From Oscillospiraceae bacterium (GTDB taxonomy: Bacteria; Bacillota; Clostridia; Oscillospirales; Oscillospiraceae): a stretch of DNA of 64,000 nucleotides. This document shows, in pieces, positions 43,753 to 64,000 of the stretch. The stretch is taken from contig SVLJ01000015.1 in NCBI GenBank assembly GCA_015067995.1, positions 511-64,510 of the forward strand, in the 5' to 3' direction. Below the pieces are notes generated by a model. That model was not told the origin of the DNA. It searched no databases and saw only the letters and a program-made list of their open reading frames with translations. Numbering within the stretch: the first letter of the stretch is position 1; the number at the start of each line of letters is the position of its first letter. Both the position numbers and the translations under genes were made by a program.

Positions 43753-43872
43753 TTACAGGTTCTTCTCGTAGGACTCGATCATCTTCTTGACCATCTGGCC
43801 GCCGACGCTGCCGGCCTCGCGGGAGGTCAGGTGACCGTTGTAGCCTTCCTTCAGGTCAACGCCGACCTCCTT
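43753..43872 (-). pseudogene. 3' fragment of an alpha/beta-type small acid-soluble spore protein gene
   Basis: It encodes ...EVGVDLKEGYNGHLTSREAGSVGGQMVKKMIESYEKNL*. This matches the C-terminal half of alpha/beta SASPs (TxRxxGxVGG core). Upstream the frame becomes AT-rich nonsense, and no N-terminal half is present. Confidence 0.8.
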
Positions 43873-43978
43873 TGATGTTAAAAAACATATTGAAATTTTC
43901 GGTTGAACCTCGATCCATGTGTTGACGGACACTTTCGAGGTTAGAAAAATGATGTTCATTATTTCAGGATTCTATTGA

Positions 43979-45646
43979 TTAGCTTGCTTCGTCGCGGCTG
44001 ACCTCGCGTACCGGCTCGCCAGAAATATCTCCGATGAAGCGATAGAAAATCCTGATTTCTTGTTTGTACGGTGTCTTGGGCCCAGCAATCGTAGTTCCTT
44101 CAGGAAGGATACGCTCGCTCACCTCAATTCGATCTATAAAAGTACGAACGATATCTTGTGTCAGGGTTTCAATGTGCGTGGCCTGCTTGACCAATTTGAA
44201 GAAGTCGCGATAATTGTCAGTGACTTGTGATGCAGCCTCGATTGAATCCCGTAACTCAGCAATCTTTGAGCTGTTGGTTTTGGATTCTTCATCGAGAGAT
44301 CTCACCATGCGCTCCAACCGCTCATCATCAATACGCCCTGAAACATTGTCCATATAAAGCTTTGTAATCATATCATCGATTTGCTTCTGGCGTTTCTCGA
44401 TGTTTCTGATCATGCTTTTGGCCTGCTGTTCTTTTTGTCCGCCTTGAGCTTCAGCTTGAACTTGACGAATGATTTCGTCCATTTCCTCATCGGTCAGGCT
44501 AATAAATTCGTTCAGTTCCTTGGTAATAATCTCAAGAAAATCCGTGTACTTGATTCTAGCGGGATGGTCACAATGTTTCGGACTTCGCTTGGGCAAGTTG
44601 TTGCATTGGAGATACCAATATTTTTCGCGCTCCCCTTTATAGACAGAGCCGGCACTACACATAGCAGTACCACAATGCGCACAGAATGCAATGCCTCCAA
44701 AGATGCTACGCCTAACGTGCTCATACTTCTGCCATTCCTTTGCAGATGCTTTCAGATTCCGTTGAACAGCATCAAAGACATCTTGAGACACTAACGGTGG
44801 ATGTGTGTTCATTGTGATATGCCACTCACTGCGATCCAGCGCAACCTTCCTCTTCGCTTTAAGGCTAACCTTTTTGCTACGGCCCAAAAGTGTATGACCG
44901 AGATAAACCTCGTTTCGGAGAATACGTTTGACAGTAACATAATTCCACGCATCCGATGCTCTTGCAGCACCCTTTTCTCCAAACTCTCCAGTATATTCGA
45001 CGCGATATTTCAATGGCGGAATAACCTTTTCAGCATTCAGCTGGTCACAAATTGCACGGGTCGATTTACCTTCGCTTGCCAGTTGAAATATCATCTGAAC
45101 GATTGGGGCGGTTGCTTCGTCTGGAATGAGTTTTGACTTGTCACGAGGATTCTTAGCATAGCCGTAAGGAGGGCAAGCCGCATATTCGCCTGCCTTCTTT
45201 TTGGCGTTCAAAATGTTTTTAACTTTCTTGGAAGTGTCGCGCAAATACACGTCGTTCATTGCAAACTGGAACGGTGCAAGTGTATTGTCCTTTTCGGAAT
45301 CAAAATTGTCGTGGATTGCAATATAATGAATTCCATTCTCAGGGAAGAAAGTTTCTGCATAATACGAGGACTCACGCATATCACGGCCCAGACGAGAAAG
45401 ATCTTTGGTCAAGACCATGGTTACTTCCTTCTTCTGCAAATAGCGAAGCATTTCATTGAATCCAGGGCGATCAAAATTTCCTCCAGAAAAACCATCGTCA
45501 ACGAACTCGCGAATAATGGTTATTCCGTGACGCTCACAATATTGGCGGATTGCAATTCTTTGGTTCTGGATACTAGATGACTCTCCGCACTTGAATTCTT
45601 CTTCGGATAATCGCAAGTAGACGTACGCTAATAATAAGGCTGTCAA
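43979..45646 (-). CDS. large serine recombinase (integrase)
   Basis: 555 aa, TTG start after GGAGGA. Resolvase catalytic domain (YLRLSEEE...DDGFSGGNFDRPGF...TKDLSRLGRD), a recombinase domain, and a zinc ribbon (CAHCGTAMC...YLQC) followed by a coiled coil. Confidence 0.93.
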   Translation of the reverse strand: MTALLLAYVYLRLSEEEFKCGESSSIQNQRIAIRQYCERHGITIIREFVDDGFSGGNFDRPGFNEMLRYLQKKEVTMVLTKDLSRLGRDMRESSYYAETFFPENGIHYIAIHDNFDSEKDNTLAPFQFAMNDVYLRDTSKKVKNILNAKKKAGEYAACPPYGYAKNPRDKSKLIPDEATAPIVQMIFQLASEGKSTRAICDQLNAEKVIPPLKYRVEYTGEFGEKGAARASDAWNYVTVKRILRNEVYLGHTLLGRSKKVSLKAKRKVALDRSEWHITMNTHPPLVSQDVFDAVQRNLKASAKEWQKYEHVRRSIFGGIAFCAHCGTAMCSAGSVYKGEREKYWYLQCNNLPKRSPKHCDHPARIKYTDFLEIITKELNEFISLTDEEMDEIIRQVQAEAQGGQKEQQAKSMIRNIEKRQKQIDDMITKLYMDNVSGRIDDERLERMVRSLDEESKTNSSKIAELRDSIEAASQVTDNYRDFFKLVKQATHIETLTQDIVRTFIDRIEVSERILPEGTTIAGPKTPYKQEIRIFYRFIGDISGEPVREVSRDEAS

Positions 45647-45671
45647 AACGGTCCTCCATTCCCAGCACTAA

Positions 45672-45866
45672 CTACGGTTTAATTATACGATAATCAGGGC
45701 TCGAATTCAAAACTCCATTTTTTAGTAACCCGTTTGAAATCTCAGTTACAAGGATCTCGGATAGAGTCCTTTGCGTCCCGAACTTTCTACGAACAATAAA
45801 CTGTCGATTTTCGACATGATAAGTGGTTGAGTTCTCCAGAGGCTGGTTACTCTTGTCTTCGTTCAT
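45672..45866 (-). CDS. small TnpW-like protein upstream of the recombinase
   Basis: 64 aa. TTYHVENRQFIVRRKFGTQRTLSEILVTEIS resembles the small TnpW-type proteins that accompany serine-recombinase transposons. This is recollection only. Confidence 0.4.
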   Translation of the reverse strand: MNEDKSNQPLENSTTYHVENRQFIVRRKFGTQRTLSEILVTEISNGLLKNGVLNSSPDYRIIKP

Positions 45867-45904
45867 TCAATCATCCTTTCCTTTGTAAGATATTTGTATT
45901 ATTG

Positions 45905-46240: not shown

Positions 46241-46245
46241 TCATC

Positions 46246-46560: not shown

Positions 46561-46689
46561 ATGAACCGCAGCAGTCATTTGAAACCGTGGGAGTTCCCAC
46601 ACCGCCCGACTGGTCCGCCGTGGTGCGATCAATCAAACAGGAAGCATAGGAAACGTGGTACGCCTGTGAAAGGGGGCGTCAGTATTTGA
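46561..46689 (+). CDS. possible 42-aa basic peptide, translationally coupled to yqaJ
   Basis: AAAGGAG RBS lies 8 nt before the ATG. The peptide reads MNRSSHLKPWEFPHRPTGPPWCDQSNRKHRKRGTPVKGGVSI. Its stop overlaps the TTG start of the next gene. Confidence 0.35.
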   Translation: MNRSSHLKPWEFPHRPTGPPWCDQSNRKHRKRGTPVKGGVSI

Positions 46690-47735
46690 CACAGAGCAAA
46701 ACATACGAACCGAATATCCTTGTAGACACATCAGATCTGCCCCGGGACGAGTGGCTGAAATATCGTCGTCTCGGAATCGGCGGCAGTGATGCAGCGGCGA
46801 TCCTTGGTATATCGCCATTCCGCACGGCCAGAGACCTCTATTACGATAAGCTGAACATTGTAACAGCGGACGATGAGGGAAACTGGGTTGCGATGGAGAT
46901 GGGGAATCTATTGGAACCTCTGGTCGCCAAAATCTTTGCCAAAAAGACCGGGCTGAAAGTATTCCAGCGCAAGTGCATGTTTCAGCATCCGCATTATCCG
47001 TGGATGCTGGCCGATCTGGATTACCTCGTGGAACTGCCAGACGGCAGCATTGCCATCTTGGAAATCAAGACCACGAACTATAATGCCAAAGACAACTGGT
47101 GGTACAACGGCAAAGAGATCGTTCCCATCTACTACGAATCCCAGGGGCGCCATTACATGAGCGTCATGAATATCGACCGCGTCTATTTCTGCTGCCTGTA
47201 TGGTAACAATGAGGACGAGGCGATCATTCGACACATTGACCGTGATATGGACTATGAAGCTGAACTGATTGCTTTGGAGCAGACCTTCTGGCATGAGAAC
47301 GTGCTTGCAAAGGTACCGCCTCCCTACACCGAGGATGGCGAGCTGATTTTGGAGAGCCTGCGCCGGAAGCTGGGGCCGTCTGAAAAAGATGCGCCGCCTG
47401 CTATTCTCTCGATGCCGCAGTATCCAAAAATTGCACGCTATATTGAGCTTCAAAAGCAGAAAAGTGAGGTCAACAAATCGCTGGAACAAATCAAAAGCGA
47501 AATGACCCGACTGAAAGGGCTTCTGGTTGAGGCAATGGGAACAAGCTGTCAGGCAACCTACGAGGACACCGACAGGCGGTTCACCGTTACATTCAATCCT
47601 GTTCGAACGCCCGGTATAACCAAGGAGGGCCTTGAACGAATGAAGGAGGTGCATCCGGACATTTACGAAGAGTATGTCACAATCTCCGAGAGCAGGAGAT
47701 TTTATATCAAAGAGACAAAGCCGAAAGCGGCTTAG
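46686..47735 (+). CDS. YqaJ-like viral recombinase exonuclease (PD-(D/E)XK)
   Basis: Contains EWLKYRRLGIGGSDAAAILGISPFRTARDLYYDK and LEIKTT. The C-terminal extension is coiled-coil. Confidence 0.85.
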   Translation: MTQSKTYEPNILVDTSDLPRDEWLKYRRLGIGGSDAAAILGISPFRTARDLYYDKLNIVTADDEGNWVAMEMGNLLEPLVAKIFAKKTGLKVFQRKCMFQHPHYPWMLADLDYLVELPDGSIAILEIKTTNYNAKDNWWYNGKEIVPIYYESQGRHYMSVMNIDRVYFCCLYGNNEDEAIIRHIDRDMDYEAELIALEQTFWHENVLAKVPPPYTEDGELILESLRRKLGPSEKDAPPAILSMPQYPKIARYIELQKQKSEVNKSLEQIKSEMTRLKGLLVEAMGTSCQATYEDTDRRFTVTFNPVRTPGITKEGLERMKEVHPDIYEEYVTISESRRFYIKETKPKAA

Positions 47736-47761: not shown

Positions 47762-50050
47762 ATGGGTATTGTTGCGGCATTTGATAAAGTGTTATTTTTT
47801 AACGCTGCCAGCAAATACTCTGTCCTGCGGCTCAAGACCGCAGACATTATGATTCCGCAGGAAGCACGCAGCCCATTTACTTACCGCGATCACCTGATCC
47901 GGTTCGTTGCAGTAGGCTATGACCTGCCTCAGACCGATGCCGTGAACTTCGAGTATGACGGCACCTGGACGAAGGGCACGCATGGTTGTCAGCTGCAGGT
48001 TGAGCGGTGGAGCGAGATCATTCCGCCAACGCTTGAAGGTATCCGGGGTTATCTGGCGTCCGGCCTTTTGAAAGGCATTGGAGAAAAGACGGCTGATGCC
48101 ATCGTCCTGCGCTTTGGGCTCAAGTCTTTGGATGTGATTGAAAACCATCCAGAGAAGCTGTTGGAGATTCGAGGTATTACGGAAGATAGGCTGGAGGACA
48201 TCAAGAACGGCTATGCGGAGAGCAAAGTCATGCGTGACCTGATGACCATTCTGGCCCCGTTCAAGGTCACCCCTGCAACGGCGATGAAGATCTATCAGCA
48301 CTTCGGCCCTGGCGGTGTTTCTCTGATACGGCAAAGTCCGTATCGCCTCTGCCAGATTCCCGGCTTTGGTTTCCGCAGAGTAGATGCCATCGTTCAGAAA
48401 TCGGGCGGAAACCTTCACGACCCCATGCGCGTACAGGGAGCCCTGTTCTATGCGCTGGAGCGGTCCCGAAGTGAAGGCGGCCACCTCTATGTTGAGGCGG
48501 AGAATCTGATCCGAAGCACGCTGCTGCTCCTGAACGAAAAAATCCCCCCGACCGAGGGGAGATTGAGTCAGCAGCAAATCGAGAAGGAATTGAGCAATAT
48601 GATTTTGTCTGATGTGGTGGTATCCAATAAGGGCAATATCTACCTGCCCCATGTGTTCAAACAGGAGAGCGAGACCGCCTGTAAGGTCGTAAAGATGCTG
48701 TTGGAGGAACCCGAACCGGTCGATCTGACACCCGTGTTGGAGCGGGTCAAGGGACAACTCGGCATCATCCTCTCCCAGCGTCAGAGCGAAGGTGTAGAGA
48801 TGGCGTTCAGGCATAACCTGTCCATTATCACCGGCGGCCCCGGCACTGGTAAAAGTACCATCCTGAAAGCCGTGATCGAGGCCTATCGCAGTCTCTACCC
48901 GAGGAAGAATATCATGCTTGGCGCACCCACGGGCAAAGCCAGTCGCCGCATGGCGGAAACAACCGGCCTTGCTACCGCGCAGACGCTGCACAGCCTTTTG
49001 GGCCTGCATGGTGAAGATGCCGGATGGCAGAAGAAAAAACCGCTGGAAGCAGACCTGCTCATTGTGGATGAGTCATCCATGATGGATATGTGGCTTGCAT
49101 ACCAGCTCTTTGCCCGTATTGCACCCGGAACAAAAGTGCTGCTGGTTGGTGACGCTGACCAGCTTGAAAGTGTGGGTGCCGGCAATGTGTTTCACGAGTT
49201 GATCAACAGCGGTCTTGTTCCTGTTACGGTTCTCAATGAGATTTTCCGTCAGGCAAAGGACAGCCTGATTGCTTACAACGCCAAGTTCATCAATGAGGAA
49301 AACAGCAACCTCTACTATGGCCCTGACTTCGCATTCATTAAGGCGGAAAGCCAGACAGAGGTAGCAGAACTGATCCGAAGCCTATACCGTCAGGAAATTG
49401 CGCAAAGCGGTATGGAGCAGGTACAGATCCTTTCCCCCTTCCGCTCTGAAGGAGAAGCTTCTTCCAATGGCCTTAACGAGGCCATCCGAGATGAGGTCAA
49501 TCCTGCGGCGGAGGAAATCCCGGAGGTCATATTCGGCGGGAAGCTATTCCGGCTGAATGACCGAGTTATGCAGACGAAAAATAACTACGATGTAGCCCTG
49601 TTTGACCGCAACGGGAAAAAAGTTGCCATGGGTGTTTTCAATGGCGACATTGGAACCATTTGCGGGATCAAGGAAAAGACAGTCACAATCAACTTCGATG
49701 GCCGTTATGCAAACTACCCGCTAGAAAGCCTGACCGAATTGGAATTGTCTTATGCTATGACCATCCATAAGGCTATGGGCAGTGAGTACGACACGGTCAT
49801 CATTCCTATGCTGCCGGCACACAAGATCCTCTTGACCCGGAATCTGATCTATACCGCTATTACCCGTGCCAAGCGCAGAGTGCTGTTGGTCGGTCAGAAA
49901 AAAGCCCTGTTCATGGCGATCCACAAGACCAACAAAGGTAAACGCAATACCCTGCTGGGTGAGAGAATGACGCTTTACTACAAGGCGCTTACGCATAGCG
50001 ATCCCCCGATCAGTCAGTCTGGGGACGAACAACTGAAAAAAGCCAGTTGA
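47762..50050 (+). CDS. RecD-like SF1B DNA helicase (RecD2/TraA-like)
   Basis: N-terminal HhH region (GIGEKTADAIV), Walker A GGPGTGKST and Walker B LLIVDESSM. The C-terminal signature is YAMTIHKAMGSEYDTVI...TAITRAKRRVLLVG. Confidence 0.9.
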   Translation: MGIVAAFDKVLFFNAASKYSVLRLKTADIMIPQEARSPFTYRDHLIRFVAVGYDLPQTDAVNFEYDGTWTKGTHGCQLQVERWSEIIPPTLEGIRGYLASGLLKGIGEKTADAIVLRFGLKSLDVIENHPEKLLEIRGITEDRLEDIKNGYAESKVMRDLMTILAPFKVTPATAMKIYQHFGPGGVSLIRQSPYRLCQIPGFGFRRVDAIVQKSGGNLHDPMRVQGALFYALERSRSEGGHLYVEAENLIRSTLLLLNEKIPPTEGRLSQQQIEKELSNMILSDVVVSNKGNIYLPHVFKQESETACKVVKMLLEEPEPVDLTPVLERVKGQLGIILSQRQSEGVEMAFRHNLSIITGGPGTGKSTILKAVIEAYRSLYPRKNIMLGAPTGKASRRMAETTGLATAQTLHSLLGLHGEDAGWQKKKPLEADLLIVDESSMMDMWLAYQLFARIAPGTKVLLVGDADQLESVGAGNVFHELINSGLVPVTVLNEIFRQAKDSLIAYNAKFINEENSNLYYGPDFAFIKAESQTEVAELIRSLYRQEIAQSGMEQVQILSPFRSEGEASSNGLNEAIRDEVNPAAEEIPEVIFGGKLFRLNDRVMQTKNNYDVALFDRNGKKVAMGVFNGDIGTICGIKEKTVTINFDGRYANYPLESLTELELSYAMTIHKAMGSEYDTVIIPMLPAHKILLTRNLIYTAITRAKRRVLLVGQKKALFMAIHKTNKGKRNTLLGERMTLYYKALTHSDPPISQSGDEQLKKAS

Positions 50051-50052
50051 AA

Positions 50053-50092
50053 TGAGATGAAATGCAGAATGGAGCATTTTCATCTCTTATTT
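50053..50092 (+). terminator. hairpin plus T-run after the helicase gene
   Basis: GAGATGAAA...TTTCATCTC followed by TTATTTTATTT. Confidence 0.55.
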
Positions 50093-50115
50093 TATTTATG
50101 AAGGGAGCAAACGAA

Positions 50116-51216
50116 ATGAACTACCCCACCAATGCTGTTATCAACTCTGTCCCGGCTGCCAGCGAACTGCGTAAAGTCGCTGGTTTTAATCCGCTGAAAT
50201 TCCTGCGTCGGACAACTTCCGAGCGTACCGGCGAGAAAGTGCTGAAACTGGACTTGTCCTATAAGCGGCTGTGGTTCCGACTGGCCTGCCCCAACGGCAG
50301 AATGGTTGTTAAGCCGCTTCGGGTCAATGACCAGATGGCAGTCTTTGAGGCCATGGTCTATGCCAGCAAGGATGATCCGGAACCTTTGGCTCGTTTTACT
50401 TCCACGGTGTCTGCACAGGAAGTTCCGGACGGTAAATTCGTTCAGGCTGCGCAGGACGCAGCACTCAACGAAGCTCTGGAGAACGCGGGATTTGGTATCC
50501 AGCTTTGTGACCTTGTGGAAGGTGCCGGTACTGCCCGATACGGCTCTGAGGTGCCGCTGTCCGCAGTCATAGAAGCTCGTAATGCCGCACCTGCACAGCC
50601 GCAGGCAATCAAGCAGTCTGCTCCGGTTGCCGAGGTGAGAAGTGCGGAGACCAAGACGGCGCCTGCGCAGACTCCCAGTACTGCGCCGAAAGCTGTAGAA
50701 GCGGCGAAACCCGTGGTAGCAGAAACCCCTGTTTCCGCGCCTGAACCCGTCACTCAGTCGATTGAGGCCGCACCTGTCATGCAGGAACAGCCCGCAGAGC
50801 AGCAGGCGCCTGATATGAGCGCCATGAACGAGCTGCTGGGCAAGCAGTCTTCTGCTGTTGTGACGGACTTCCCGATGTCTGCCCCTGCGGCTCAGGAAGA
50901 AGTGGCTGTTGCTGCGGAACCCCAGGCACCTGCCATTGCTGTTCCCGAAGAGCCCGCTGCGCCTGCTGCAGAGCCTGCGGCCCCCGGCTATACGCCCGAC
51001 ATGACCGTTGAGGAGATCTGTGAGCGCATGACGCTGGATGAAGCACGCAACTATGTGGTGAACAGCGGCGTTTGCAAGGGCTGGACTTTGGCACAGGTTG
51101 CCGAGCGCAGAGCGCCCAGCCTGCGGTTCTATGTTTTCTCTGATAATGGCGACAATGTGCTCAAGGCAGCCGCTACTCTCGTTTTGAATGACATGGGTAT
51201 GCGCAAAGCCGGATAA
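50116..51216 (+). CDS. putative single-strand annealing protein (Rad52/Sak-like N-domain) with Ala/Pro-rich linker and conserved C-terminal tail
   Basis: Trimmed to MNYPTNAVIN with RBS AAGGGAG. YKRLWFRLACPNGRMV...KFVQAAQDAALNEALENAGFGIQL resembles the Rad52-type annealing fold. Its position next to a YqaJ exonuclease supports this. No search was run. Confidence 0.4.
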   Translation: MNYPTNAVINSVPAASELRKVAGFNPLKFLRRTTSERTGEKVLKLDLSYKRLWFRLACPNGRMVVKPLRVNDQMAVFEAMVYASKDDPEPLARFTSTVSAQEVPDGKFVQAAQDAALNEALENAGFGIQLCDLVEGAGTARYGSEVPLSAVIEARNAAPAQPQAIKQSAPVAEVRSAETKTAPAQTPSTAPKAVEAAKPVVAETPVSAPEPVTQSIEAAPVMQEQPAEQQAPDMSAMNELLGKQSSAVVTDFPMSAPAAQEEVAVAAEPQAPAIAVPEEPAAPAAEPAAPGYTPDMTVEEICERMTLDEARNYVVNSGVCKGWTLAQVAERRAPSLRFYVFSDNGDNVLKAAATLVLNDMGMRKAG

Positions 51217-53277: not shown

Positions 53278-54171
53278 ATGGGAATCTTTGCTGAGATGGA
53301 TATGATGCAGCGCAACGGAGACGATCCGTTTTCCGCTGATACGGAGCAGCCGGCTTTTGGTGAGCCGGAAACCATGTGCGATACGCAGTCGGCCTTTGCA
53401 CCCGATGTTGCGCCAGAAACCGAGCCAGAACCGACACCTGCAATGCCTGAAATATCTGCGGCACCTGTTGCGGAGAAAGCGGAAGATCAGGCATCAAAGG
53501 ATGACGATGAGGAGGCCAAACGGCTCGCCCATGAAGAGGCGGAAGCCAAGCGCAAAGCAGAATTCGAAGCCCGGCAGAAGGCCAAAAAGGATGCCGAGCA
53601 GGCCCAGCTTGCGCGAATCGCATCCATGACAGAACAGGAACTGATGGCGGAATCCATGAAGCGCATCAGCACAGACACAGAGCGATTGACCCGACGCAAT
53701 ATGAAGGAATGTATTTCCGAGCATATTCAAACGCTGTGCCTGTCTGACCGGGCCTTTGCAGAGCGGGTCATGCATCCTCGCAAGACTATGATCCACTGTA
53801 TCTGGTACATCAACCGGAAAGCACAGGAGTTTGTCGAGCAGGAAATGAAGGACAACGGCATTAAGCCTGACCGCAACGGTATCTATGGCTGTGACGTACC
53901 GGACGATCTCTGCTATCAGTGGGCGGAAGACTACTTCAACGACCCCAACGCCAAGGAGGATCAGGAAGAGGAAGAAAAGTTTGTGCCCAAGCCCTACGTC
54001 GGCAAGAGCAAGACACCTTCCAAAACTGCTGCCAAGGGTAAAGGCAAGAAAGATGCTGCAAAGTCAACTGCGGAGAAAAAGCCTGTGGACAAGAAACCCG
54101 AGCAGCCCAAAACGGCTGATGTAGGTCAAATGACGCTGGGTGATTTCGGAATGTTGGGGGCAAGTGCATGA
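53278..54171 (+). CDS. PcfK-like / AcrIIA9-family-like protein
   Basis: Charged coiled-coil N-terminal half. The core HPRKTMIHCIWYINRKAQEFVE...GIYGCDVPDDLCYQWAEDYFND is followed by a Lys-rich tail. This resembles PcfK-like proteins of conjugative elements, from recollection. Confidence 0.5.
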   Translation: MGIFAEMDMMQRNGDDPFSADTEQPAFGEPETMCDTQSAFAPDVAPETEPEPTPAMPEISAAPVAEKAEDQASKDDDEEAKRLAHEEAEAKRKAEFEARQKAKKDAEQAQLARIASMTEQELMAESMKRISTDTERLTRRNMKECISEHIQTLCLSDRAFAERVMHPRKTMIHCIWYINRKAQEFVEQEMKDNGIKPDRNGIYGCDVPDDLCYQWAEDYFNDPNAKEDQEEEEKFVPKPYVGKSKTPSKTAAKGKGKKDAAKSTAEKKPVDKKPEQPKTADVGQMTLGDFGMLGASA

Positions 54172-54719
54172 TGATTGCCTACAAAGGATTTGAACCCGGC
54201 TTAATTTGCCGAGGATACCATTTTGTGATGGGGCTGAACATTACCGATAAGGCTAATTGCAGAGCCAACGGCTTCCATTGTGCGGAAGATCCGTTGGACT
54301 GCCTGACCTACTACTCCGATATGGAGCATTCGGAATACTATCTGGTCAATGCCGGTGGTGATGTGGATGAGGATGAACACGATTCCAAGATTTCCTGTAC
54401 GGAGCTGACGATCCTGCGTAAGCTCAGCCGCACAGAGTTCTTTCTCCATGCGCTGGCGTACATGGTGGATCATCCGAAACGGAAGTGGAACAGCAAAGTC
54501 AACGAAGAAACCGGAGAAGCAAGTTGTGGTTATGCCGTTGTGCGTGGCATCGACCCCAAAGCCAGTGGGCAAATGGGCGATGTCCTTGCACTTGCCAAAG
54601 AAGATCCGCGTACCGGAAAAATCATTCAGGTTGGGCTGACCCAAGTGGATGGTATCAAGGTGCTGCCCGGAAAGTGGTACGACATTGACTTCTCTGAAAG
54701 AGAGGTGATTTTGACATGA
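54168..54719 (+). CDS. conserved phage/ICE protein (DUF7666-like)
   Basis: MMIAYKGFEPGLICRGYHFVMGLN...NGFHCAEDPLDCLTYY matches the KGF...C...GFH.C..PLD pattern I associate with that family. Confidence 0.4.
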   Translation: MMIAYKGFEPGLICRGYHFVMGLNITDKANCRANGFHCAEDPLDCLTYYSDMEHSEYYLVNAGGDVDEDEHDSKISCTELTILRKLSRTEFFLHALAYMVDHPKRKWNSKVNEETGEASCGYAVVRGIDPKASGQMGDVLALAKEDPRTGKIIQVGLTQVDGIKVLPGKWYDIDFSEREVILT

Positions 54720-57370: not shown

Positions 57371-57690
57371 TTGAAAATCTGAACCAGCTGAAACGCGAGT
57401 TTCAGAAGAACCCCCGTTTTGAGATCATCGACCATTGGAAAAAAGAATGTGTCGGTGAGGTACGCAAGGTCGTCGCCGTGAATACCGTCAGCTTCCACAG
57501 CGTGGTGGATGGTCAGCCTGAGCATAAGAACAGTCAGGCAAACGGCGGAAAGGGCGTTGTCCTCTGGTGGGAAAAGGCCGCAGACTGGGCATTTCAGAAC
57601 GGCGTTTGCTCCGTCTATTTCAAAGGCAAGGAGCATGTGCATGAGAATCTGATTATGTCCTTCCGCCTGCTCCCCGAGGAGGTGGCGTAA
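57367..57690 (+). CDS. hypothetical protein
   Basis: 107 aa. Its start overlaps the previous stop and its stop overlaps the ligA start. Confidence 0.5.
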   Translation: MIENLNQLKREFQKNPRFEIIDHWKKECVGEVRKVVAVNTVSFHSVVDGQPEHKNSQANGGKGVVLWWEKAADWAFQNGVCSVYFKGKEHVHENLIMSFRLLPEEVA

Positions 57691-59693
57691 TGGAACAGAA
57701 TATGACCGCCTACCAGCGCGTACATCACTTGACCACGGTGTTGAACCGGTATCGCCATGAGTATTATAACCTCAATGCCCCCACAGTCGAAGACCAGGTG
57801 TATGACCGCCTGTTCGATGAATTGGCCGCATTGGAAAAAGAGACCGGTATCCGGATGGGCAACTCTCCCACCCAGACGGTTGGCTATCCTGCCGTGAGCA
57901 AGTTGAAGAAAACGACGCACACCATCCCGCTTCTTTCCCTTGATAAGACGAAGAGCAGCGAGGAACTGCTGGCCTTCATGGGCGAGCAGGGCGTGCTGCT
58001 GATGCTCAAGTTGGACGGCTTGACCATCAAGCTGACCTACGAAAACGGTGTCCTGCAGGAGGCCTCCACCCGTGGCGATGGTGATGAGGGTGAAATCGTC
58101 ACCCACAATGTGACCGGAATCACTGGCATCCCGTCCCACATTCCCTTTAAGGGGCGTCTGGTGGTGACTGGCGAGGCATTCATTCGTCCCAGCGACTTTG
58201 CCGTATTGCAGGCAACGCTGGTAGACAGCAATGGCAAGCCGTATAAGAATGGCCGCAATCTGGCGGCCGGCTCTGTCCGCCTGCTGGATGCCAAAGTCTG
58301 CAAAGAGCGCAGGATCAACTTCATGGCGTTCAGCGTTCTGGAGGGTTTTGATAATCTTGCCCTCAAGAGTGAACGCCTTATGCAGTTGTGGAGCCTCGGC
58401 TTTACCGTCTGCCACTACCTCAAAAGCAATCGTAAGATGAAGCTGGAGGAGTTGGATATGGGAATCAAGATGCTGCAGGACTACGCAAAGAAATATGATG
58501 TACCCATTGACGGTATCGTAATGAGCTACAATGATGTGGCCTACTCCAAGAGCTGCGGCCGCACGGAACATCACTACAAGGATGGCCTTGCGTTCAAGTT
58601 TGAAGATGACCTCTTTAAGACCAAGCTGCAGACCATTGAATGGACACCCACACGCACCGGTGAAATCTCTCCCGTTGCCATCTTTGATACGGTGGAGATT
58701 GACGGCTGCTCGGTGTCCCGGGCGAGCCTTCATAATCTGTCTTTCATCGAGGCGCTGGAGCTGAGACCCGGCAATCGGATCATCGTCTCCAAGCGGAATA
58801 TGATTATCCCCCATGTAGAGGAAAACCTTGACCGCGGAGCTTTTGATTTGCAGAGCGTGATCCCGGCCAAGTGTCCCTGCTGTGGTGAGCCGACCCGTAT
58901 CCATATCAACGGTGAAACAAACGGTACCAAGACGCTGTTCTGCGATAATCCCGCCTGCGAGACTCGCCGACTGCGCCAGTTCGTACACTTCGTTGGTGAA
59001 AAGGCCATGAACATTGAGGGCCTGTCTGAAGGAACGCTGGAGAAGCTCATTGGCCGTGGGTTCCTCCACAGCTTTATGGACATCTACCAGCTGGACCGAT
59101 ATAAGGACGAGGTCATTAAGATGGACGGCTATGGTGAGCGATCCTGGCAGCGCCTTTGGGACGCGATCCAGCGCAGTCGGGATACCACCTTCGAGCGGTA
59201 CATGATTGCCATGGACATCCCAATGGTGGGCAATACTGCAAGCCGCACACTGAGCCGGCAGTTCAATGCCAGTCTGGAAGCATTTGAGGACGCCATTTTC
59301 CAGCAGTTTGATTTCACGCAGCTGCCGGACTTTGGAGAAACGCTTCATAAGAACATCCATGCATGGTTCCAGAGCGAGGAAAACTGGTACACCTGGGCGG
59401 AGCTTCGCAACTTCGTGACGATTGCGCCGCCTGTAGCACCGGTACCGATTGCTGTTCCCGGCAACCCCTTTATGGGCAAGACCGTCGTGGTCACCGGAAA
59501 GGTGGAGCCGTACAGCAGAACCGGTATCAATGCCAAAATTGAGGCTCTGGGTGCCCGTGCAGGCAGTTCCGTGAGCAGCAAGACCGATTATCTGATCTGT
59601 GGAGAGAACGCGGGAAGCAAGCTGGAAAAGGCTCAGTCTCTGGGCATTACCGTGCTGACTCCTGCGGAGTTCTTCCGAATGATCGGCGAATAA
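57690..59693 (+). CDS. ligA: NAD-dependent DNA ligase (element-encoded paralogue)
   Basis: Domain Ia is YRHEYYNLNAPTVEDQVYDRLFDEL. The adenylation lysine lies in KLDGLT. OB fold and a C4 zinc finger (CPCCGEPT...CDNPAC) follow, then HhH repeats and a BRCT domain (KTVVVTGKV...SSKTDYLICGENAGSKLEKAQSLGI). Confidence 0.92.
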   Translation: MEQNMTAYQRVHHLTTVLNRYRHEYYNLNAPTVEDQVYDRLFDELAALEKETGIRMGNSPTQTVGYPAVSKLKKTTHTIPLLSLDKTKSSEELLAFMGEQGVLLMLKLDGLTIKLTYENGVLQEASTRGDGDEGEIVTHNVTGITGIPSHIPFKGRLVVTGEAFIRPSDFAVLQATLVDSNGKPYKNGRNLAAGSVRLLDAKVCKERRINFMAFSVLEGFDNLALKSERLMQLWSLGFTVCHYLKSNRKMKLEELDMGIKMLQDYAKKYDVPIDGIVMSYNDVAYSKSCGRTEHHYKDGLAFKFEDDLFKTKLQTIEWTPTRTGEISPVAIFDTVEIDGCSVSRASLHNLSFIEALELRPGNRIIVSKRNMIIPHVEENLDRGAFDLQSVIPAKCPCCGEPTRIHINGETNGTKTLFCDNPACETRRLRQFVHFVGEKAMNIEGLSEGTLEKLIGRGFLHSFMDIYQLDRYKDEVIKMDGYGERSWQRLWDAIQRSRDTTFERYMIAMDIPMVGNTASRTLSRQFNASLEAFEDAIFQQFDFTQLPDFGETLHKNIHAWFQSEENWYTWAELRNFVTIAPPVAPVPIAVPGNPFMGKTVVVTGKVEPYSRTGINAKIEALGARAGSSVSSKTDYLICGENAGSKLEKAQSLGITVLTPAEFFRMIGE

Positions 59694-59755: not shown

Positions 59756-59989
59756 ATGGCGAATATGAGTTACTGCCGCTTTACCAATACCAGAAGCGAT
59801 ATGGAAGACTGTCTGGAAGCTCTGCGTGATGAAACGCCGCTGAGCGACTTTGAAGTGCGTGCAGGCAAGGCAATGTTCAAGGATATTCTGGAAGTATGTC
59901 AGGCCTATGGCATTATTGACGCTTTTGACGGCGACGAGATCGACCGTCTGTTTGACAATTTGCTGGAGAAGGAGGATGAGGACGAATGA
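59756..59989 (+). CDS. hypothetical acidic small protein
   Basis: MANMSYCRFTNTRSDMEDCLEAL..., with GAAAGGAA RBS. Confidence 0.5.
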   Translation: MANMSYCRFTNTRSDMEDCLEALRDETPLSDFEVRAGKAMFKDILEVCQAYGIIDAFDGDEIDRLFDNLLEKEDEDE

Positions 59990-60381
59990 TCCCGACAATC
60001 ACACAGGATGCTCCCAACATTGTGCCCCGGCATTGGTGTTCCAAATGCGGCCGAAAGCTGGTACCGCATGACAACTTCTACAAGATGCTGCCAGATAATT
60101 TCTGCCCCGGGTGCGGTGAACAAATCGAATGGGACAAGGCTGTTCCGGTGAAGTGGGAGCCCATGAACTGCGATGTATGCGGTAAGCCCATGATCGTTGA
60201 TATGAACGGGCACATGGTTGCCGTTGGCTACTATGTGGGTACGACCACCTGCCGCAGCTGCATGGAAGAATACTGCTCCCAAACGAACTGTTTGGGCTGC
60301 AAGCGAGGCACCTACCCGGACTGCAAATACCAGTATTTGAAGCCCAAGCCGATGGTCGAGGAAGATGGCCATGGCGAATAA
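59986..60381 (+). CDS. cysteine-rich (multi zinc-ribbon) protein
   Basis: 131 aa with CSKCG, CPGCG, CDVCG, CRSC and CLGC pairs. Confidence 0.55.
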   Translation: MIPTITQDAPNIVPRHWCSKCGRKLVPHDNFYKMLPDNFCPGCGEQIEWDKAVPVKWEPMNCDVCGKPMIVDMNGHMVAVGYYVGTTTCRSCMEEYCSQTNCLGCKRGTYPDCKYQYLKPKPMVEEDGHGE

Positions 60382-61273: not shown

Positions 61274-62302
61274 TTATTCTCGGAGCAGATTGATATATTC
61301 GAAAATCTGCTGTTTCAAATTAGCACACACTTCGTCCAATGTGGCGTCTGCCAATGGTTCAAGAGCAAAATAGCAAGTGTTCCAAACAGTATCATCCTGT
61401 TTATGTTTTGGGATTTGCAGGAAACGCTTGCGGAAATCTTCCGGCTGTTGCCAGTCCTTGTTGGAGATACCTACCCAGAACGGTGTCTCAACGGAAATAT
61501 CGCTTTTCCACAAGTTGCGATCATACAACAAAGAGACAATGAAATCATCGACAGTAAGCTTTCGTTCATATCCTGCCCGATATGCGGAGGCCTTTCCCTT
61601 GTGAGATGCCGTGACGCTGCCATCTGCGACGATCAGTTTGGCCGTTTCATCGATCACTTCATAGTAACGTTCAAATCTCTTGGCGTTTTCCGCGGTCAGC
61701 TCTGTGCTCTCAAACGGAATGAATGCATCGCTGTCCATTTGGGCGCAGTACCCTTCGAGCTGATGGATGTCCGAAAGGTATTCGATTGCAGAAGAAGATG
61801 CAACCTTATGTAAGTGATTAAGAATCTCTGCCCATGTCATAATAGACATGGCAATGCCATCCACGCGGACACAGTGTTCGTGGACTGTTTGGACTTCGCG
61901 TGTGGCACACAAGTCTTTCAGCTTCATCCACAGGCTGGTCATTCTAGCCTTTGGACAAATAAAGATGAGCCCCTGTCCCTGTTTTTCCTTCAGACGATCA
62001 AGATAGCTTAATGGTTGATTATGGGTCAAGCCGGCATAGAACTTCATCTCACATAGTACACGCTCACGGCCTACAGAATCGATACCTGCCATATCAGGAC
62101 GCTCTTGATCTTCGCCTACTGCCTGGCAGAAATACCGCAGGTCGTCGTCAAGATCAATCCCCAAACTGGTTGAAAGCAGATGCGTAAAAGCACTGTTCAA
62201 AGCATCGGACTGTGACAGTAAGTATTGCAGAGCGATGGTTGCAATATCTTCCTGAGAACCTCTAATCCTTGAATATAAATGTGCAAGCAAAGATTGCGCC
62301 AC
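61274..62302 (-). CDS. PD-(D/E)XK nuclease-like protein, orphan cargo gene
   Basis: 342 aa. Candidate motif ERPDMAGIDSVGRERVLCEMKFYAGL (D ... E-x-K). Opposite strand and AT-richer than the neighbouring block. No family name recognised. Confidence 0.5.
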   Translation of the reverse strand: MAQSLLAHLYSRIRGSQEDIATIALQYLLSQSDALNSAFTHLLSTSLGIDLDDDLRYFCQAVGEDQERPDMAGIDSVGRERVLCEMKFYAGLTHNQPLSYLDRLKEKQGQGLIFICPKARMTSLWMKLKDLCATREVQTVHEHCVRVDGIAMSIMTWAEILNHLHKVASSSAIEYLSDIHQLEGYCAQMDSDAFIPFESTELTAENAKRFERYYEVIDETAKLIVADGSVTASHKGKASAYRAGYERKLTVDDFIVSLLYDRNLWKSDISVETPFWVGISNKDWQQPEDFRKRFLQIPKHKQDDTVWNTCYFALEPLADATLDEVCANLKQQIFEYINLLRE

Positions 62303-62404
62303 AGTTAATCCCCCAATCTGAAGTACTGATTGAAAAAATTATACTTCCAAATCAGACATATGTAAAGTTTGCAATGCGTGGCGCTTTTACTCTTGGCGAT
62401 TTTA

Positions 62405-62433
62405 TTGAAGTTTAAGATGACATTTGCTAAAAT
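62405..62433 (+). promoter_or_regulatory. candidate promoter
   Basis: TTGAAG (62405-62410), 17 nt spacer, TAAAAT (62428-62433). Confidence 0.45.
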
Positions 62434-62495
62434 GTATCTAACTGGCTAATAAGGTCTGAATGCTCAGATATATGGGCGTTGAAGAAGGTGTTTTC

Positions 62496-64000
62496 ATGAA
62501 AATAAAGCAAATTGTTTCACGCATGACGCTTGCTGCGATTATGCTGGGGCTGCTGACCGGCTGCAGTGCAGACAATACACTGGGAAGTATTCCGGACAGG
62601 ACACCGGAGAATCCGATGGCGGCAACGCTCCTCTCGGCGGAGGAAGACGCCCGATTAAAAGAAGATCTGCAAAAGGATATTGATGCCATTCTCAATACAG
62701 AAACAGAGATTATTCACTCTGACACCTATATCCCCGGAGAGACTTACACTGGCAATGCCTACTATGTCTCAGCTGATGGCGATGACAATAACGACGGCCT
62801 CACCCCAGAGACTGCGTGGCAATCTGTCGCAAAGGTGGGACAGGAATCCATGGCAGGAGGTATCCTCCAATTTGGTGATGCAGTATTCTTCCGTCGCGGT
62901 GATCTGTTCCGTTCTTTTGATTATGACCCCGGCACAAACCCATTTACTTGCCGTATTGATGGCATCACCTACTCAGCCTATGGTGAAGGCGCAAAACCGA
63001 TCATCACAAGCTCTCCCGAAAATGGCGCAGGCGCAGAAAAATGGCAGCTTGTTTATGAAGGGGAAAACGGCACAAGAATCTGGCAGTTCTATCACGATCT
63101 GACCGACATTGCCTCCATCGTTTTCGATGACGATAGTGTTGCGGAGCGCGTCTACGAGTGGTGCGCCAGCGAATCCGTGGGAGAAGGCAGTGAGTATGTC
63201 TCTTGTACGCTGAACGGCTGGTGGATGCATGAGGATGTGGGGGCCGAGGTGATGGATGAACTTCTTCCGCTGGAGGAAACTCTGGTGGAGGATATGACCT
63301 TTGTTAGCCGTCCGGCCCGTTGGCCTGCAAATGAATTTATGAATTCCAGCGCGACAGGCCCTCTCTATCTCCGCTGTGACAGAGGAAACCCCGGCGAGTT
63401 GTATGATTCTGTTGAGTTTTCCGGCTTTGAGATCAGGGGTCTGATTTCCGTGGAGGCCAGTGATATCGTTTTTGATAACCTCAGCCTGCGCTACACAGGC
63501 ACATCCTTTATCAAAAATGACCCGAGCTGGAAAGCAAATAAAAATACGGTGATTCAGAACTGTGAATTTGCCTACGGCGGCGGAAGCGTGTCCTTCTATC
63601 GGATCACAGACAGCGGCGCAAAAATTGTCGAGGTCCAGGGGGACGGTATCTACTGCGTTGTCCGCAACGCGACGATTAGAAATAATTATATGCACGACAA
63701 CCTCTGTAGTTCGGTGTGTTTTGAGGACGCTGTCCCCTCTTATCCGAACCCGACCGACGATTACGGCTACTGTCATATTCTGGACAATGTTTTTGTCGAC
63801 ACTCTGGGAATGAATCTTGACTGCTCTGAGCGGGAATCCTCCGATGCCCTCAAACATTTAGATTCGCTGATTGTGCGCGGTAATCAGGCTTGGCGCACAG
63901 GCAGTACATCTGACGACCAGTTTATCTATTCCTGCGGTGCTTTGATCCTGTATTCCAATTTCTTTGATGAATGCATCATTGAGGATAATGTGTTCTACGG
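62496..64000 (+). CDS. lipoprotein with right-handed beta-helix (pectate-lyase-like) region; 3' end beyond window
   Basis: Absent from the ORF track because it is open to the window end. From the ATG at 62496 it reads MKIKQIVSRMTLAAIMLGLLTGCSADN... (lipobox LLTGC). Later come YYVSADGDDNNDGLTPETAW and repeated N-x-x-x-N/D beta-helix-like segments. Confidence 0.7.
   Translation, partial: MKIKQIVSRMTLAAIMLGLLTGCSADNTLGSIPDRTPENPMAATLLSAEEDARLKEDLQKDIDAILNTETEIIHSDTYIPGETYTGNAYYVSADGDDNNDGLTPETAWQSVAKVGQESMAGGILQFGDAVFFRRGDLFRSFDYDPGTNPFTCRIDGITYSAYGEGAKPIITSSPENGAGAEKWQLVYEGENGTRIWQFYHDLTDIASIVFDDDSVAERVYEWCASESVGEGSEYVSCTLNGWWMHEDVGAEVMDELLPLEETLVEDMTFVSRPARWPANEFMNSSATGPLYLRCDRGNPGELYDSVEFSGFEIRGLISVEASDIVFDNLSLRYTGTSFIKNDPSWKANKNTVIQNCEFAYGGGSVSFYRITDSGAKIVEVQGDGIYCVVRNATIRNNYMHDNLCSSVCFEDAVPSYPNPTDDYGYCHILDNVFVDTLGMNLDCSERESSDALKHLDSLIVRGNQAWRTGSTSDDQFIYSCGALILYSNFFDECIIEDNVFY

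What the first reader, a model, noticed from the sequence alone, without database searches (positions are those of the whole stretch)
43753..64000. Alpha/beta-type SASP gene cut in two by a large-serine-recombinase element
Minus-strand positions 43753-43869 encode EVGVDLKEGYNGHLTSREAGSVGGQMVKKMIESYEKNL. This matches the C-terminal half of alpha/beta small acid-soluble spore proteins (TxRxxGxVGG core).

Immediately 5' of it, three things point to an insertion junction. The reading frame turns into AT-rich nonsense. Base composition changes abruptly at about 43870. A 555-aa large serine recombinase ends about 105 bp away. This is the geometry of an attL junction.

The missing N-terminal 25-35 codons, which should include the GPR cleavage motif, do not appear anywhere up to 64000. 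The element is therefore longer than 20 kb and its right end lies outside the window.

There is a twist. The known intervening elements in sporulation genes (skin in sigK, SPbeta in spsM) interrupt mother-cell genes and are excised only in the terminal mother cell. SASP genes are forespore genes, so excision there would remove the element from the germ line. This is therefore either plain inactivation of one SASP paralogue or a different regulatory logic.
Basis: partly seen in the sequence, partly recalled or inferred. Interest (0 to 1): 0.7.

Follow-up and report, generated by a model that had tools for sequence, protein, structure and literature searches.

The report
Conjugative element inserted in spore-protein gene
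A large mobile DNA element that looks conjugative has used a serine recombinase to insert itself precisely into a gene for a DNA-protecting spore protein in a gut Oscillospiraceae bacterium, and several related and unrelated mobile elements use the same spot in this gene family.

Summary
Window 43753-43869 (-) encodes the last 38 residues of an alpha/beta-type SASP (Pfam PF00269, E 3.7e-18). A 555-aa large serine recombinase (LSR) ends 109 nt from the break.

A strain 99.93% identical to the window carries the intact 65-aa gene, and identity to the window stops exactly at 43869. The missing 5' half was found on other contigs of the same species, joined to the element's other end. The two junctions rebuild the intact gene base for base around a GA crossover. 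The two element arms form a 21/31 inverted repeat, as expected of an LSR attP.

The far arm carries VirB4-like and VirD4-like conjugation ATPases and a sortase. The element is therefore most likely an integrative conjugative element (ICE) of at least about 56 kb, not a skin- or SPbeta-like prophage.

The identical recombinase sits in at least five different SASP loci. Recombinases 52-53% identical, and two other element types, also use this GA.

Best reading: SASP genes serve as a conserved, probably dispensable landing site, and this copy is simply inactivated. Nothing points to sporulation-timed excision. No paper in the held library describes this target.

The parts
43753..43869 (-). 3' half of an alpha/beta-type SASP gene: codons 28-65 plus the stop codon. 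This is the B' arm of attB.
   Evidence: Pfam PF00269 positions 22-59/59, E 3.7e-18. Identical to codons 28-65 of the intact allele L010.
43698..43738 (-). The SASP gene's own intrinsic terminator hairpin.
   Evidence: Fold of -29 kcal/mol, z -8.2 (4th sequence). Sequence shown.
43868..43869 (-). GA crossover dinucleotide of attL. These are the first two bases of the Glu28 codon.
   Evidence: attB is GCCGCT-GA-GGTCGGC (L010). attL is CATCAAAG-GA-GGTCGGC (window). attR is GCCGCT-GA-TTTTCGGG (L062, L064)..
43870..43909 (-). P arm of attP, the element-side half of attL.
   Evidence: Constant in every copy of the element whatever the host flank. Matches the reverse complement of the P' arm at 21 of 31 positions in register; 0 of 200,000 random 31-mers reach this.
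43753..43959 (-). 68-aa chimeric ORF: 30 element-derived residues followed by 38 SASP residues. It lacks the first 27 SASP residues and is presumed non-functional.
   Evidence: The exact protein is MBE6962511.1 (MAG, Ruminococcaceae/Oscillospiraceae bacterium), seen on 16 contigs.
43979..45646 (-). Large serine recombinase of 555 aa, TnpX/TndX-like with a DUF4368 C-terminus. It reads towards attL.
   Evidence: Pfam Resolvase, Recombinase, Zn_ribbon_recom and DUF4368. Best solved-structure match is the TnpX catalytic domain 2mhc (E 1.9e-25), followed by SPbeta SprA/YokA. The identical protein lies next to SASP halves in several hosts.
45672..45866 (-). 64-aa ORF 25 nt upstream of the recombinase gene. 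It is present in every copy. Function unknown; an accessory or directionality factor is only a guess.
   Evidence: Called in all loci. No Pfam or NCBIfam hit.
46686..47735 (+). YqaJ-like exonuclease.
   Evidence: PF09588, E 1e-25.
47762..50050 (+). RecD2-like SF1 helicase.
   Evidence: AAA_19, AAA_30, HHH_RecD2, SH3_13 and UvrD_C_2.
50062..51216 (+). 384-aa protein with no Pfam domain. It is 32% identical to the Slr1353_N-like protein of the small SASP-inserted elements.
51255..52952 (+). Primase-like protein: CHC2 zinc finger (weak) with a C-terminal YodL domain.
   Evidence: PF14191, E 2.9e-20. PF01807, E 1.1e-4, below its cut-off.
53278..54171 (+). PcfK-like protein.
   Evidence: PF14058, E 1.5e-17.
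54168..54719 (+). DUF7666 protein.
   Evidence: PF24703, E 8e-31.
54716..56887 (+). PcfJ-like protein.
   Evidence: PF14284, E 3.6e-29.
57690..59693 (+). NAD-dependent DNA ligase carried by the element.
   Evidence: DNA_ligase_aden, DNA_ligase_OB and BRCT.
59986..60381 (+). 131-aa zinc-ribbon protein. It is 46% identical to the 126-130-aa protein near attR in the small relatives.
61274..62302 (-). 342-aa protein of unknown function, part of the element.
   Evidence: No Pfam hit. Used as a handle to extend the element. Exact protein is MBE6962527.1.
43870..64000 (.). Left arm of the element (recombinase end). It runs off the window.
   Evidence: L025 continues 6.9 kb beyond 64000 at 99.8% identity. 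The far arm and attR are on L062, L064 and L068.

Best explanation
The window holds the attL junction and the first 20 kb of a large integrative element, most likely an ICE of at least about 56 kb. The element inserted into the coding sequence of an alpha/beta-type SASP gene in an Oscillospiraceae bacterium.

Its TnpX/TndX-like large serine recombinase recombined an imperfectly palindromic attP (...TTTTTTAACATCAAAG-GA-TTTTCGGGTTAAATCAC...) with an attB inside the SASP gene (...ATGGAAGCCGCCGCT-GA-GGTCGGCGTTGAC...). The exchange took place at the GA of the Glu28 codon. That codon lies in the stretch of the protein that corresponds, by analogy with Bacillus SASPs, to the GPR cleavage region.

The gene is split into two parts. 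Codons 1-27, with a sigmaG-like promoter, lie at attR. Codons 28-65 lie at attL, and this is the fragment in the window. This SASP copy is therefore inactive while the element is integrated. Precise excision would rebuild it.

Because the attB sequence is conserved across SASP genes, the same element can land in different SASP loci and in different host lineages. SASP genes usually occur in several copies, so losing one is probably cheap, although this was not shown for this host.

Shown here: both junctions, the empty site, the crossover dinucleotide, repeated use of the site, and conjugation genes on the attR arm.

Inferred: that the two arms are one element, that the cost to the host is low, and that excision is tied to conjugation rather than to sporulation.
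For: - SASP fragment and recombinase domains.
- Empty site: L010 is 99.93% identical to window 40903-43869, and identity ends at the GA.
- Intact locus with both flanks (SpoVT - SASP - DUF3793 - serine acetyltransferase - CysRS) on L054-L059. The exact intact protein is on 26 contigs.
- attR: L062 and L064 carry SpoVT and the SASP 5' half, 141 nt 100% identical to L010, joined at GA to element DNA. L064 comes from the same sample (3300018494) as the attL contig L003.
- B arm + GA + B' arm (82 nt) occurs exactly in L010. The attP arms match 21/31 in register; 0 of 200,000 random 31-mers and 2 of 200,000 shuffles reach this.
- The identical 555-aa recombinase with the identical P arm lies beside five different B' arms or 3' flanks: L011, L012-14, L015, L016 and L020. 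A close variant of the recombinase end, L051, adds a sixth in a goat-colon MAG. The identical P' arm lies in a quite different SASP gene in L068.
- The attR arm encodes a VirB4-like ATPase, a VirD4-like coupling protein (NF045973, 394 bits against a cut-off of 250) and a sortase. The left arm has PcfJ, PcfK and YodL domains.
- The best structural relative of the catalytic domain is TnpX.
- A strong terminator lies inside attR (-29.8 kcal/mol, z -9).
Against: - No single contig spans the element. At least about 15 kb of its middle is unseen.
- No relaxase has been seen in the parts read.
- The link between the arms rests on att-site logic and co-occurrence, not on continuity.
- The size estimate of at least 56 kb is indirect. 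The L002 contig holds about 56.3 kb on the element side, yet the exact attR stub is on no contig longer than 56,382 bp.
- The number of SASP paralogues in this host is unknown, so 'dispensable' is an assumption.
- Recombinase activity, excision and transfer are untested.
- The NCBI MAG that holds the window's proteins also holds a differently broken copy of the same SASP gene. That means either a strain mixture or an unresolved structure.
Confidence: 0.78

Rival explanations
1. The element is a developmentally regulated gene-intervening element like skin, SPbeta, vfbin or yin. Its excision would be timed by sporulation to rebuild the SASP gene, or to change SASP dosage.
For: It splits a sporulation gene in frame-precise fashion with an LSR, and precise excision would restore the ORF. 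That matches the known class (PMC4191935; PMC10747680). A conserved small ORF lies upstream of the recombinase gene and could be a directionality factor.
Against: - All described cases interrupt mother-cell genes and excise only in the terminal mother cell. SASPs act in the forespore (established knowledge), so mother-cell excision would not help, and forespore excision would remove the element from the germ line.
- The element carries conjugation genes rather than prophage remnants.
- A strong terminator insulates it from the sigmaG-like SASP promoter.
- The same element lies in several different SASP loci, as expected of a generic landing site.
Confidence: 0.06
2. The element is a temperate phage or phage-plasmid, not an ICE.
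For: YqaJ exonuclease, RecD2-like helicase and primase modules. A ParM-like partition protein (phrog_691, E 9e-30) and weak baseplate-like hits. Relatives occur in IMG/VR and in a 'Bacteriophage sp.' record.
Against: - The attR arm carries VirB4-like and VirD4-like ATPases and a sortase.
- PcfJ, PcfK and YodL are conjugative-element domains.
- No terminase, portal or capsid gene is seen in about 41 kb.
- No megablast match to 50,697 phage records.
- The clade is nearly absent from IMG/VR.
- The baseplate hits are short and weak (E 1e-4 to 1e-6 over 30-80 residues).
Confidence: 0.07
3. The DNA between attL and attR is a tandem or nested array of two or more elements. One possibility is a recombinase-plus-replication element next to a separate conjugative element, rather than one ICE.
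For: Nested or tandem arrangements occur at this site in L039-L041: a decayed recombinase followed by a second element end 7.5 kb further in. Small relatives (L037, L044, L048) carry the YqaJ-RecD2-primase module without any visible T4SS. The middle of the element is unseen.
Against: The outer arms pair as the two halves of one attP, 21/31. The same P arm and the same P' arm each recur unchanged in several hosts. Two accreted elements of the same att type would, however, look the same.
Confidence: 0.1

Closest known systems
Tn4451/Tn5397-type clostridial elements with TnpX/TndX large serine recombinases
   Same: The recombinase has Resolvase, Recombinase and zinc-ribbon domains plus a DUF4368 tail. 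Its catalytic domain is closest to the TnpX structure 2mhc. Exchange occurs at a GA dinucleotide, as I recall being reported for TnpX and TndX (from memory).
   Different: The target here is one defined site in SASP genes, used repeatedly. The element is much larger (at least about 56 kb) and has different cargo. Sequence identity to TnpX/TndX outside the catalytic domain was not measured.
Sporulation-gene intervening elements: skin in sigK, SPbeta in spsM, vfbin in spoVFB, vrin in spoVR, gin in gerE, yin in yabG
   Same: A mobile element sits inside the coding sequence of a sporulation gene. It is bounded by att sites, and precise excision rebuilds the gene (PMC4191935; PMC10747680). The skin and SPbeta recombinases, SpoIVCA and SprA, are large serine recombinases (PMC5499854 for SprA; SpoIVCA from memory).
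   Different: Those elements interrupt mother-cell genes, are prophages or prophage remnants, and excise under sporulation control in the mother cell only. This element interrupts a forespore gene, carries conjugation genes, and shows no sign of developmental control.
ICEs (conjugative transposons) of Clostridioides difficile 630 that carry the CD1110/CD1115-type transfer genes
   Same: The VirD4-like coupling protein passes the NCBIfam CD1115-family cut-off. The VirB4-like ATPase is close to the CD1110 family: 267 bits against a cut-off of 325.
   Different: The integration site, the recombinase end and the replication-type cargo differ. No relaxase has yet been seen here.
Mobile elements that integrate into conserved genes, for example IME_Rho_tet in MAFF2 ORFs or ICEs in rpsI (PMC12904643)
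   Same: A serine recombinase with inverted-repeat ends targets a short conserved ORF that exists in many copies or many hosts.
   Different: The target gene family differs (SASP) and so does the host group (Oscillospiraceae carrying sporulation genes such as SpoVT and GerA).

Membership tests
Alpha/beta-type small acid-soluble spore protein (PF00269) | Significant match to the family profile | tested here: met
   The fragment scores 65.7 bits against a cut-off of 22, E 3.7e-18, at profile positions 22-59/59.
Alpha/beta-type small acid-soluble spore protein (PF00269) | A full-length gene exists at this locus in relatives that lack the insert | tested here: met
   The 65-aa intact allele is on L010 (99.93% identical flank) and on L054-L059 with both flanks.
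Alpha/beta-type small acid-soluble spore protein (PF00269) | Forespore (sigmaG) expression | tested here: inconclusive
   GAATA-17 nt-CAAACTA lies upstream of the start codon (L062 10721-10749) and resembles the B. subtilis sigmaG consensus as I recall it. There are no expression data.
Large serine recombinase (integrase) | N-terminal resolvase catalytic domain, recombinase domain and zinc beta-ribbon domain | tested here: met
   PF00239 (92.6 bits), PF07508 (85.5 bits) and PF13408 (32.2 bits), all above their cut-offs.
Large serine recombinase (integrase) | Catalytic serine in the N-terminal YxRxS-type motif | tested here: met
   The sequence reads ...VYLRLS14EEE. Residues 7-118 align with TnpX residues 8-119, which places S14 opposite TnpX residue 15. 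That TnpX residue 15 is the catalytic serine is from memory.
Large serine recombinase (integrase) | attP and attB are unrelated except for a shared central dinucleotide; attP is an imperfect inverted repeat; integration makes no target duplication | tested here: met
   GA is the only shared core. The attP arms match 21/31, the attB arms 14/40. attR plus attL rebuild attB with no duplication.
Large serine recombinase (integrase) | Catalyses attP x attB recombination | not testable with these tools
   This needs an in vitro or in vivo assay.
Integrative conjugative element (ICE) | Integrase and att sites bounding the element in the chromosome | tested here: met
   attL is in the window; attR is on L062, L064 and L068.
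Integrative conjugative element (ICE) | Type IV secretion ATPase (VirB4) and coupling protein (VirD4) | tested here: met
   On the attR arm (L068): NF045973 at 394 bits against a cut-off of 250. The VirB4-like protein scores 275 and 267 bits, below the equivalog cut-offs, but has TraG P-loop and AAA_10 domains.
Integrative conjugative element (ICE) | Relaxase and oriT | tested here: inconclusive
   None is seen in the roughly 41 kb read. The middle of the element is unseen.
Integrative conjugative element (ICE) | Physical continuity of the recombinase arm and the T4SS arm | tested here: inconclusive
   No spanning contig was found. The link rests on att pairing and on one shared sample.
Sporulation-gene intervening element (skin/SPbeta class) | Inserted within the coding sequence of a sporulation gene, which precise excision would reconstitute | tested here: met
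Sporulation-gene intervening element (skin/SPbeta class) | The interrupted gene is expressed in the mother cell | tested here: not met
   The gene is an alpha/beta SASP. This family is forespore-expressed (established knowledge), and the promoter looks sigmaG-like. All described cases are mother-cell genes.
Sporulation-gene intervening element (skin/SPbeta class) | Excision is triggered during sporulation by a sporulation-controlled directionality factor | not testable with these tools
   No directionality factor was identified. The 64-aa ORF has no family match.

The most novel reading that the evidence does not exclude
The element, and the other element families that share this GA site, are not passive passengers. 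Excision and reintegration might be coupled to spore formation or germination. For example, the element could excise in the forespore, persist as an episome using its own replication and ParM-like partition genes, and reintegrate or transfer at outgrowth. Integration would then act as a heritable switch on SASP dosage and spore DNA protection in gut Oscillospiraceae.
Probability: 0.06. Interest if true: 0.8.

Novelty: new member of a known kind. Interest (0 to 1): 0.45.

Why it matters
This adds alpha/beta SASP genes to the list of conserved genes that mobile elements use as landing sites.

The site is heavily used in gut Oscillospiraceae. Truncated 31-35-aa SASP stubs left at such junctions occur on hundreds to more than a thousand contigs. 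In RefSeq they are annotated as ordinary SASPs in Neopoerus and Dysosmobacter.

It is also the first case I could find of a sporulation gene split by a recombinase-borne element where the gene belongs to the forespore rather than the mother cell. That shows splitting a sporulation gene need not imply developmental excision.

Practical consequences:
- The recombinase, with its defined attP and attB, is a candidate integration tool for Clostridia.
- Carriage of these elements may lower SASP dosage and so affect spore resistance.
- Counts of SASP genes used as sporulation markers will be distorted by these stubs.

Tried and rejected
- **First guess at attR was wrong.** A metagenome scan with the 5'-half DNA found only L031. 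Its P' arm (GA-GGTTGATGTGTAAAGG, RepA_N/DUF6017 end) looked like a partner through a 7-bp repeat. The true partner (L062, L064) pairs much better, so L031 belongs to a different element family at the same site.
- **Degenerate attL/attR pattern over 185,579 species genomes.** It found only three loci (L051, L052, L053). None had both ends on one contig, so it gave no size or pairing.
- **Walking the element.** Exact-protein look-ups reached about 7 kb past the window (L025) and 14 kb in from attR (L068).
- **Phage and plasmid databases.** Megablast of the 20-kb element part found no match.
- **IMG/VR.** Scans with the recombinase, with a recombinase alignment and with the att pattern found only one relative contig. 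Relatives of the attR-arm genes in IMG/VR (L065, L067) are not at SASP genes.
- **31-aa query.** A tandem duplicate of it worked.
- **SpoVT from a locus as a look-up handle.** A cluster-member id worked.
- **Replacement half-gene.** The element does not supply a substitute SASP 5' half at attL; the 109-nt spacer has no SASP-like coding. No SASP gene was found in the parts of the element that were read.
- **Literature.** Seven searches of the held library found no report of an element integrated in a SASP gene. This covers that library only.

Full report
**1. The observation**

On the minus strand, window 43753-43869 encodes EVGVDLKEGYNGHLTSREAGSVGGQMVKKMIESYEKNL followed by TAA. Pfam places this on the alpha/beta SASP model PF00269 at positions 22-59 of 59 (E 3.7e-18; 65.7 bits against a cut-off of 22). 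The last two thirds of the domain are therefore present and the first 21 profile positions are missing.

Upstream, the open frame continues as 30 residues unrelated to SASPs. G+C drops from 0.598 in the fragment to 0.33 in the next 109 nt and 0.448 in the recombinase gene. The host flank is 0.568.

The ORF at 43979-45646 (-) is a 555-aa large serine recombinase (LSR). It has Resolvase, Recombinase, zinc-ribbon and DUF4368 domains, all above their Pfam cut-offs. Its closest solved relative is the catalytic domain of TnpX (2mhc, E 1.9e-25), followed by SPbeta SprA/YokA.

tblastn with the full SASP and with its N-terminal 29 residues finds nothing else in the 64 kb.

**2. The empty site**

I looked up the neighbouring DUF3793 protein by exact sequence. 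This returned contigs with the same junction and one contig, L010, with an intact 65-aa gene: MSSKNNNKLNVPEARAAMDKFKMEAAAEVGVDLKEGYNGHLTSREAGSVGGQMVKKMIESYEKNL.

L010 is 99.93% identical to window 40903-43869, and the identity stops exactly at 43869. The exact intact protein is on 26 contigs.

Contigs L054-L059 show the undisturbed locus with both flanks: GerA ... FAD oxidoreductases - SpoVT - (137-aa ORF) - SASP - (three extra genes in some lineages) - DUF3793 - serine acetyltransferase - CysRS. The last three genes are the genes at window 40169-43222.

**3. The other junction**

A SpoVT variant (P0301, which carries an NCBI accession of the same MAG, locus tags E7445_, as the window's proteins) led to L062 and L064. 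There the SASP 5' half, 141 nt 100% identical to L010, runs ...GAAGCCGCCGCT-GA and then switches to TTTTCGGGTTAAATCACATATTAAAATC.... L064 comes from the same sample (3300018494) as L003, a contig that carries the window's attL.

The three sites compare as follows:
- attB: GCCGCT-GA-GGTCGGC
- attL: CATCAAAG-GA-GGTCGGC
- attR: GCCGCT-GA-TTTTCGGG

The crossover is therefore the GA that begins the Glu28 codon, at window 43868-43869.

Joining the B arm, GA and the B' arm gives an 82-nt string that occurs exactly in L010. The element-side arms match each other as an inverted repeat at 21 of 31 positions in register. This is reached by 0 of 200,000 random 31-mers from the element and by 2 of 200,000 shuffles. 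The attB arms match only 14/40. This is the expected anatomy of an LSR attP x attB pair. The break falls in ...KMEAAA|EVGV.... By analogy with the EIASEF site of Bacillus SASPs (from memory), this is the GPR cleavage region.

**4. What the element is**

Within the window, the left arm encodes the following:
- the recombinase and a conserved 64-aa ORF;
- a YqaJ exonuclease and a RecD2-like helicase;
- a primase-like protein with a YodL domain;
- PcfK-like, DUF7666 and PcfJ-like proteins;
- an NAD-dependent DNA ligase and a zinc-ribbon protein.

L025 continues 6.9 kb past the window. It adds two proteins of about 600 aa, a ParM-like partition protein, an HTH regulator, and YpsA- and IreB-like proteins.

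The attR arm (L062, L068) encodes a winged-helix protein with weak DnaD-like or replication-initiator similarity and several unknown proteins. These are followed by a 976-aa VirB4-like ATPase, a VirD4-like coupling protein that passes the NCBIfam CD1115-family cut-off (394 bits against 250), and a sortase.

No capsid, portal or terminase gene appears in about 41 kb. The 20-kb window part has no megablast match in 50,697 phage or 72,556 plasmid records. I therefore read the element as an ICE.

Its size is inferred. Contig L002 has about 56.3 kb on the element side of attL. The exact 39-aa attR stub, however, is on no contig longer than 56,382 bp. That contig therefore does not reach attR, and the element is at least about 56 kb. 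The two arms were not joined on one contig, and no relaxase has been seen.

**5. Site specificity**

The identical recombinase and P arm lie next to SASP 3' halves with five different B' arms or 3' flanks:
- the window type (L011);
- L012-14 and L017-19 (EVGVNLKQGYNGDLSS...);
- L015 and L009 (the orthologous locus in a sister lineage);
- L016 (DUF421 flank);
- L020.

A close variant of the recombinase end (L051) adds a sixth B' arm in a goat-colon Oscillospiraceae MAG.

The identical P' arm lies in a quite different SASP gene (MSSNKKTVVPSARDAMNQFKMEAAS|...) in L068.

Recombinases only 52-53% identical also sit at this position. L021 has a co-directional 3' half. L032 has the 5' half on the opposite strand, so that element is inserted the other way round. 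This fits orientation being set by the central dinucleotide alone.

**6. The same GA is used by other element types**

A homology search with a tandem copy of the N-terminal stub returned many 31-54-aa 'SASPs'. They end ...KMEAAAEV|DV followed by several different tails. Their contexts show two further element ends:
- a RepA_N/DUF6017 end of ICE-like elements (L031, L033, L052 in Neopoerus faecalis CMD_1836, L053 in an Oscillibacter MAG);
- small elements with the same YqaJ-RecD2-primase module, in the same order and orientation as the window's element (L037, L044, L048; 32-46% protein identity). A decayed, IS-ridden copy is in Dysosmobacter sp. Sow4_B12 (L043).

The scaffold L050 shows both ends of one such element around a scaffold gap. 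The 31-aa stubs are on 712 and at least 1000 contigs. They carry RefSeq SASP names WP_286148143.1 and WP_297878997.1.

**7. Regulation**

The SASP 5' half keeps a GAATA-17 nt-CAAACTA motif about 60-90 nt upstream of the start codon. This resembles the B. subtilis sigmaG consensus as I recall it.

Just inside attR, all three element-end types carry a strong hairpin followed by a T-run (-29.8, -16.8 and -35.5 kcal/mol; z -9.0, -3.7 and -8.6). This would stop transcription from the SASP promoter before it enters the element.

I found no recognisable directionality factor. The 64-aa ORF upstream of the recombinase has no family match.

**8. Interpretation**

Of its two options, the data favour plain inactivation. 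A conjugative element uses a conserved sequence in a gene family that is probably redundant as a portable landing site.

The known sporulation-gene intervening elements (skin, SPbeta, vfbin, vrin, gin, yin) all interrupt mother-cell genes and excise in the mother cell. This element fails that defining feature, and I do not file it with them.

Seven searches of the held library found no report of an element integrated in a SASP gene.

**9. Caveats**

- The element is not closed.
- The NCBI MAG with locus tags E7445_ holds both the window's chimera (MBE6962511.1) and a differently broken copy of the same gene next to SpoVT (MBE6962272.1). It is probably a strain mixture.
- All functional statements (recombinase activity, transfer, cost to spores) are inferences.

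Noticed in passing
L060 10812-11078 and L061 (JGI 3300031555 144-kb contig; ENA ERZ27248314): The same SASP gene is broken at a second point in other strains. Codons 1-56 are intact (...GGQMVK), then the sequence reads GGTCAAGAA|CAATTGTTCTGTACGAACAG. This is followed by a 308/318-aa ORF, a KAP NTPase/DUF6414 protein, an SLFN_AlbA_2/HATPase_c_4 protein and a beta-lactamase. The 88-aa chimera is MBE6962272.1, from the same MAG as the window's proteins.
   Followed up: partly
L004 1-65, matching window 53934-53998 and 43848: The contig starts with the reverse complement of the PcfK-like gene and joins SASP codon 36 through a 4-nt overlap (GAAG). This is either a 10.1-kb deletion that removes the recombinase and attL, locking the element in place, or an assembly chimera.
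   Followed up: partly
L031, L033, L052, L053; L037, L044, L048, L043; L032, L039-L041: At least three other kinds of element end occupy the same GA in SASP genes: RepA_N/DUF6017 ICE-like ends, small YqaJ-RecD2-primase elements, and recombinase-proximal ends in inverted orientation. L039-L041 look nested or tandem, with a decayed recombinase.
   Followed up: partly
Proteins P0241 (WP_286148143.1, Neopoerus faecalis) and P0256 (WP_297878997.1, Dysosmobacter sp.): 31-aa '...EVDV' stubs annotated in RefSeq as alpha/beta-type SASPs are truncated 5' halves at element junctions. They occur on 712 and at least 1000 contigs.
   Followed up: partly
L062 10930-10985; L031 about 300-340; L037 about 3760-3815: Every attR-end type carries a strong terminator-like hairpin within a few tens of bases of the junction, between the SASP promoter and the first element gene.
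   Followed up: yes
L050 2742-3039: A scaffold joins attR and attL of one small element across a run of 10 N. This gives both arms of its attP (GGGAACATCAAGG-GA-GGTTGATGTACCC) in one record.
   Followed up: yes
window 57690-59693 and L025 3218-4132: The element carries its own NAD-dependent DNA ligase. Just beyond the window it also carries a ParM-like partition protein, which is unusual cargo for an integrated element.
   Followed up: no
window 20275-20372; 23087-23172; 23228-23318: A glycine riboswitch and two tRNA genes lie in the host part of the window.
   Followed up: no
window 43223-43752: About 530 bp between the DUF3793 gene and the SASP terminator hold only a 64-68-aa ORF on the plus strand, with no recorded Pfam hit. 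It is called as a gene in most related contigs but absent from the calls in L005 and L009.
   Followed up: no
L012-L014 12600-21600: In another host, the SASP 3' half is followed within 1-2 kb by a further mobile element with two tyrosine integrases, a MobL relaxase and HTH proteins. SASP neighbourhoods may therefore be hot spots for mobile elements.
   Followed up: no
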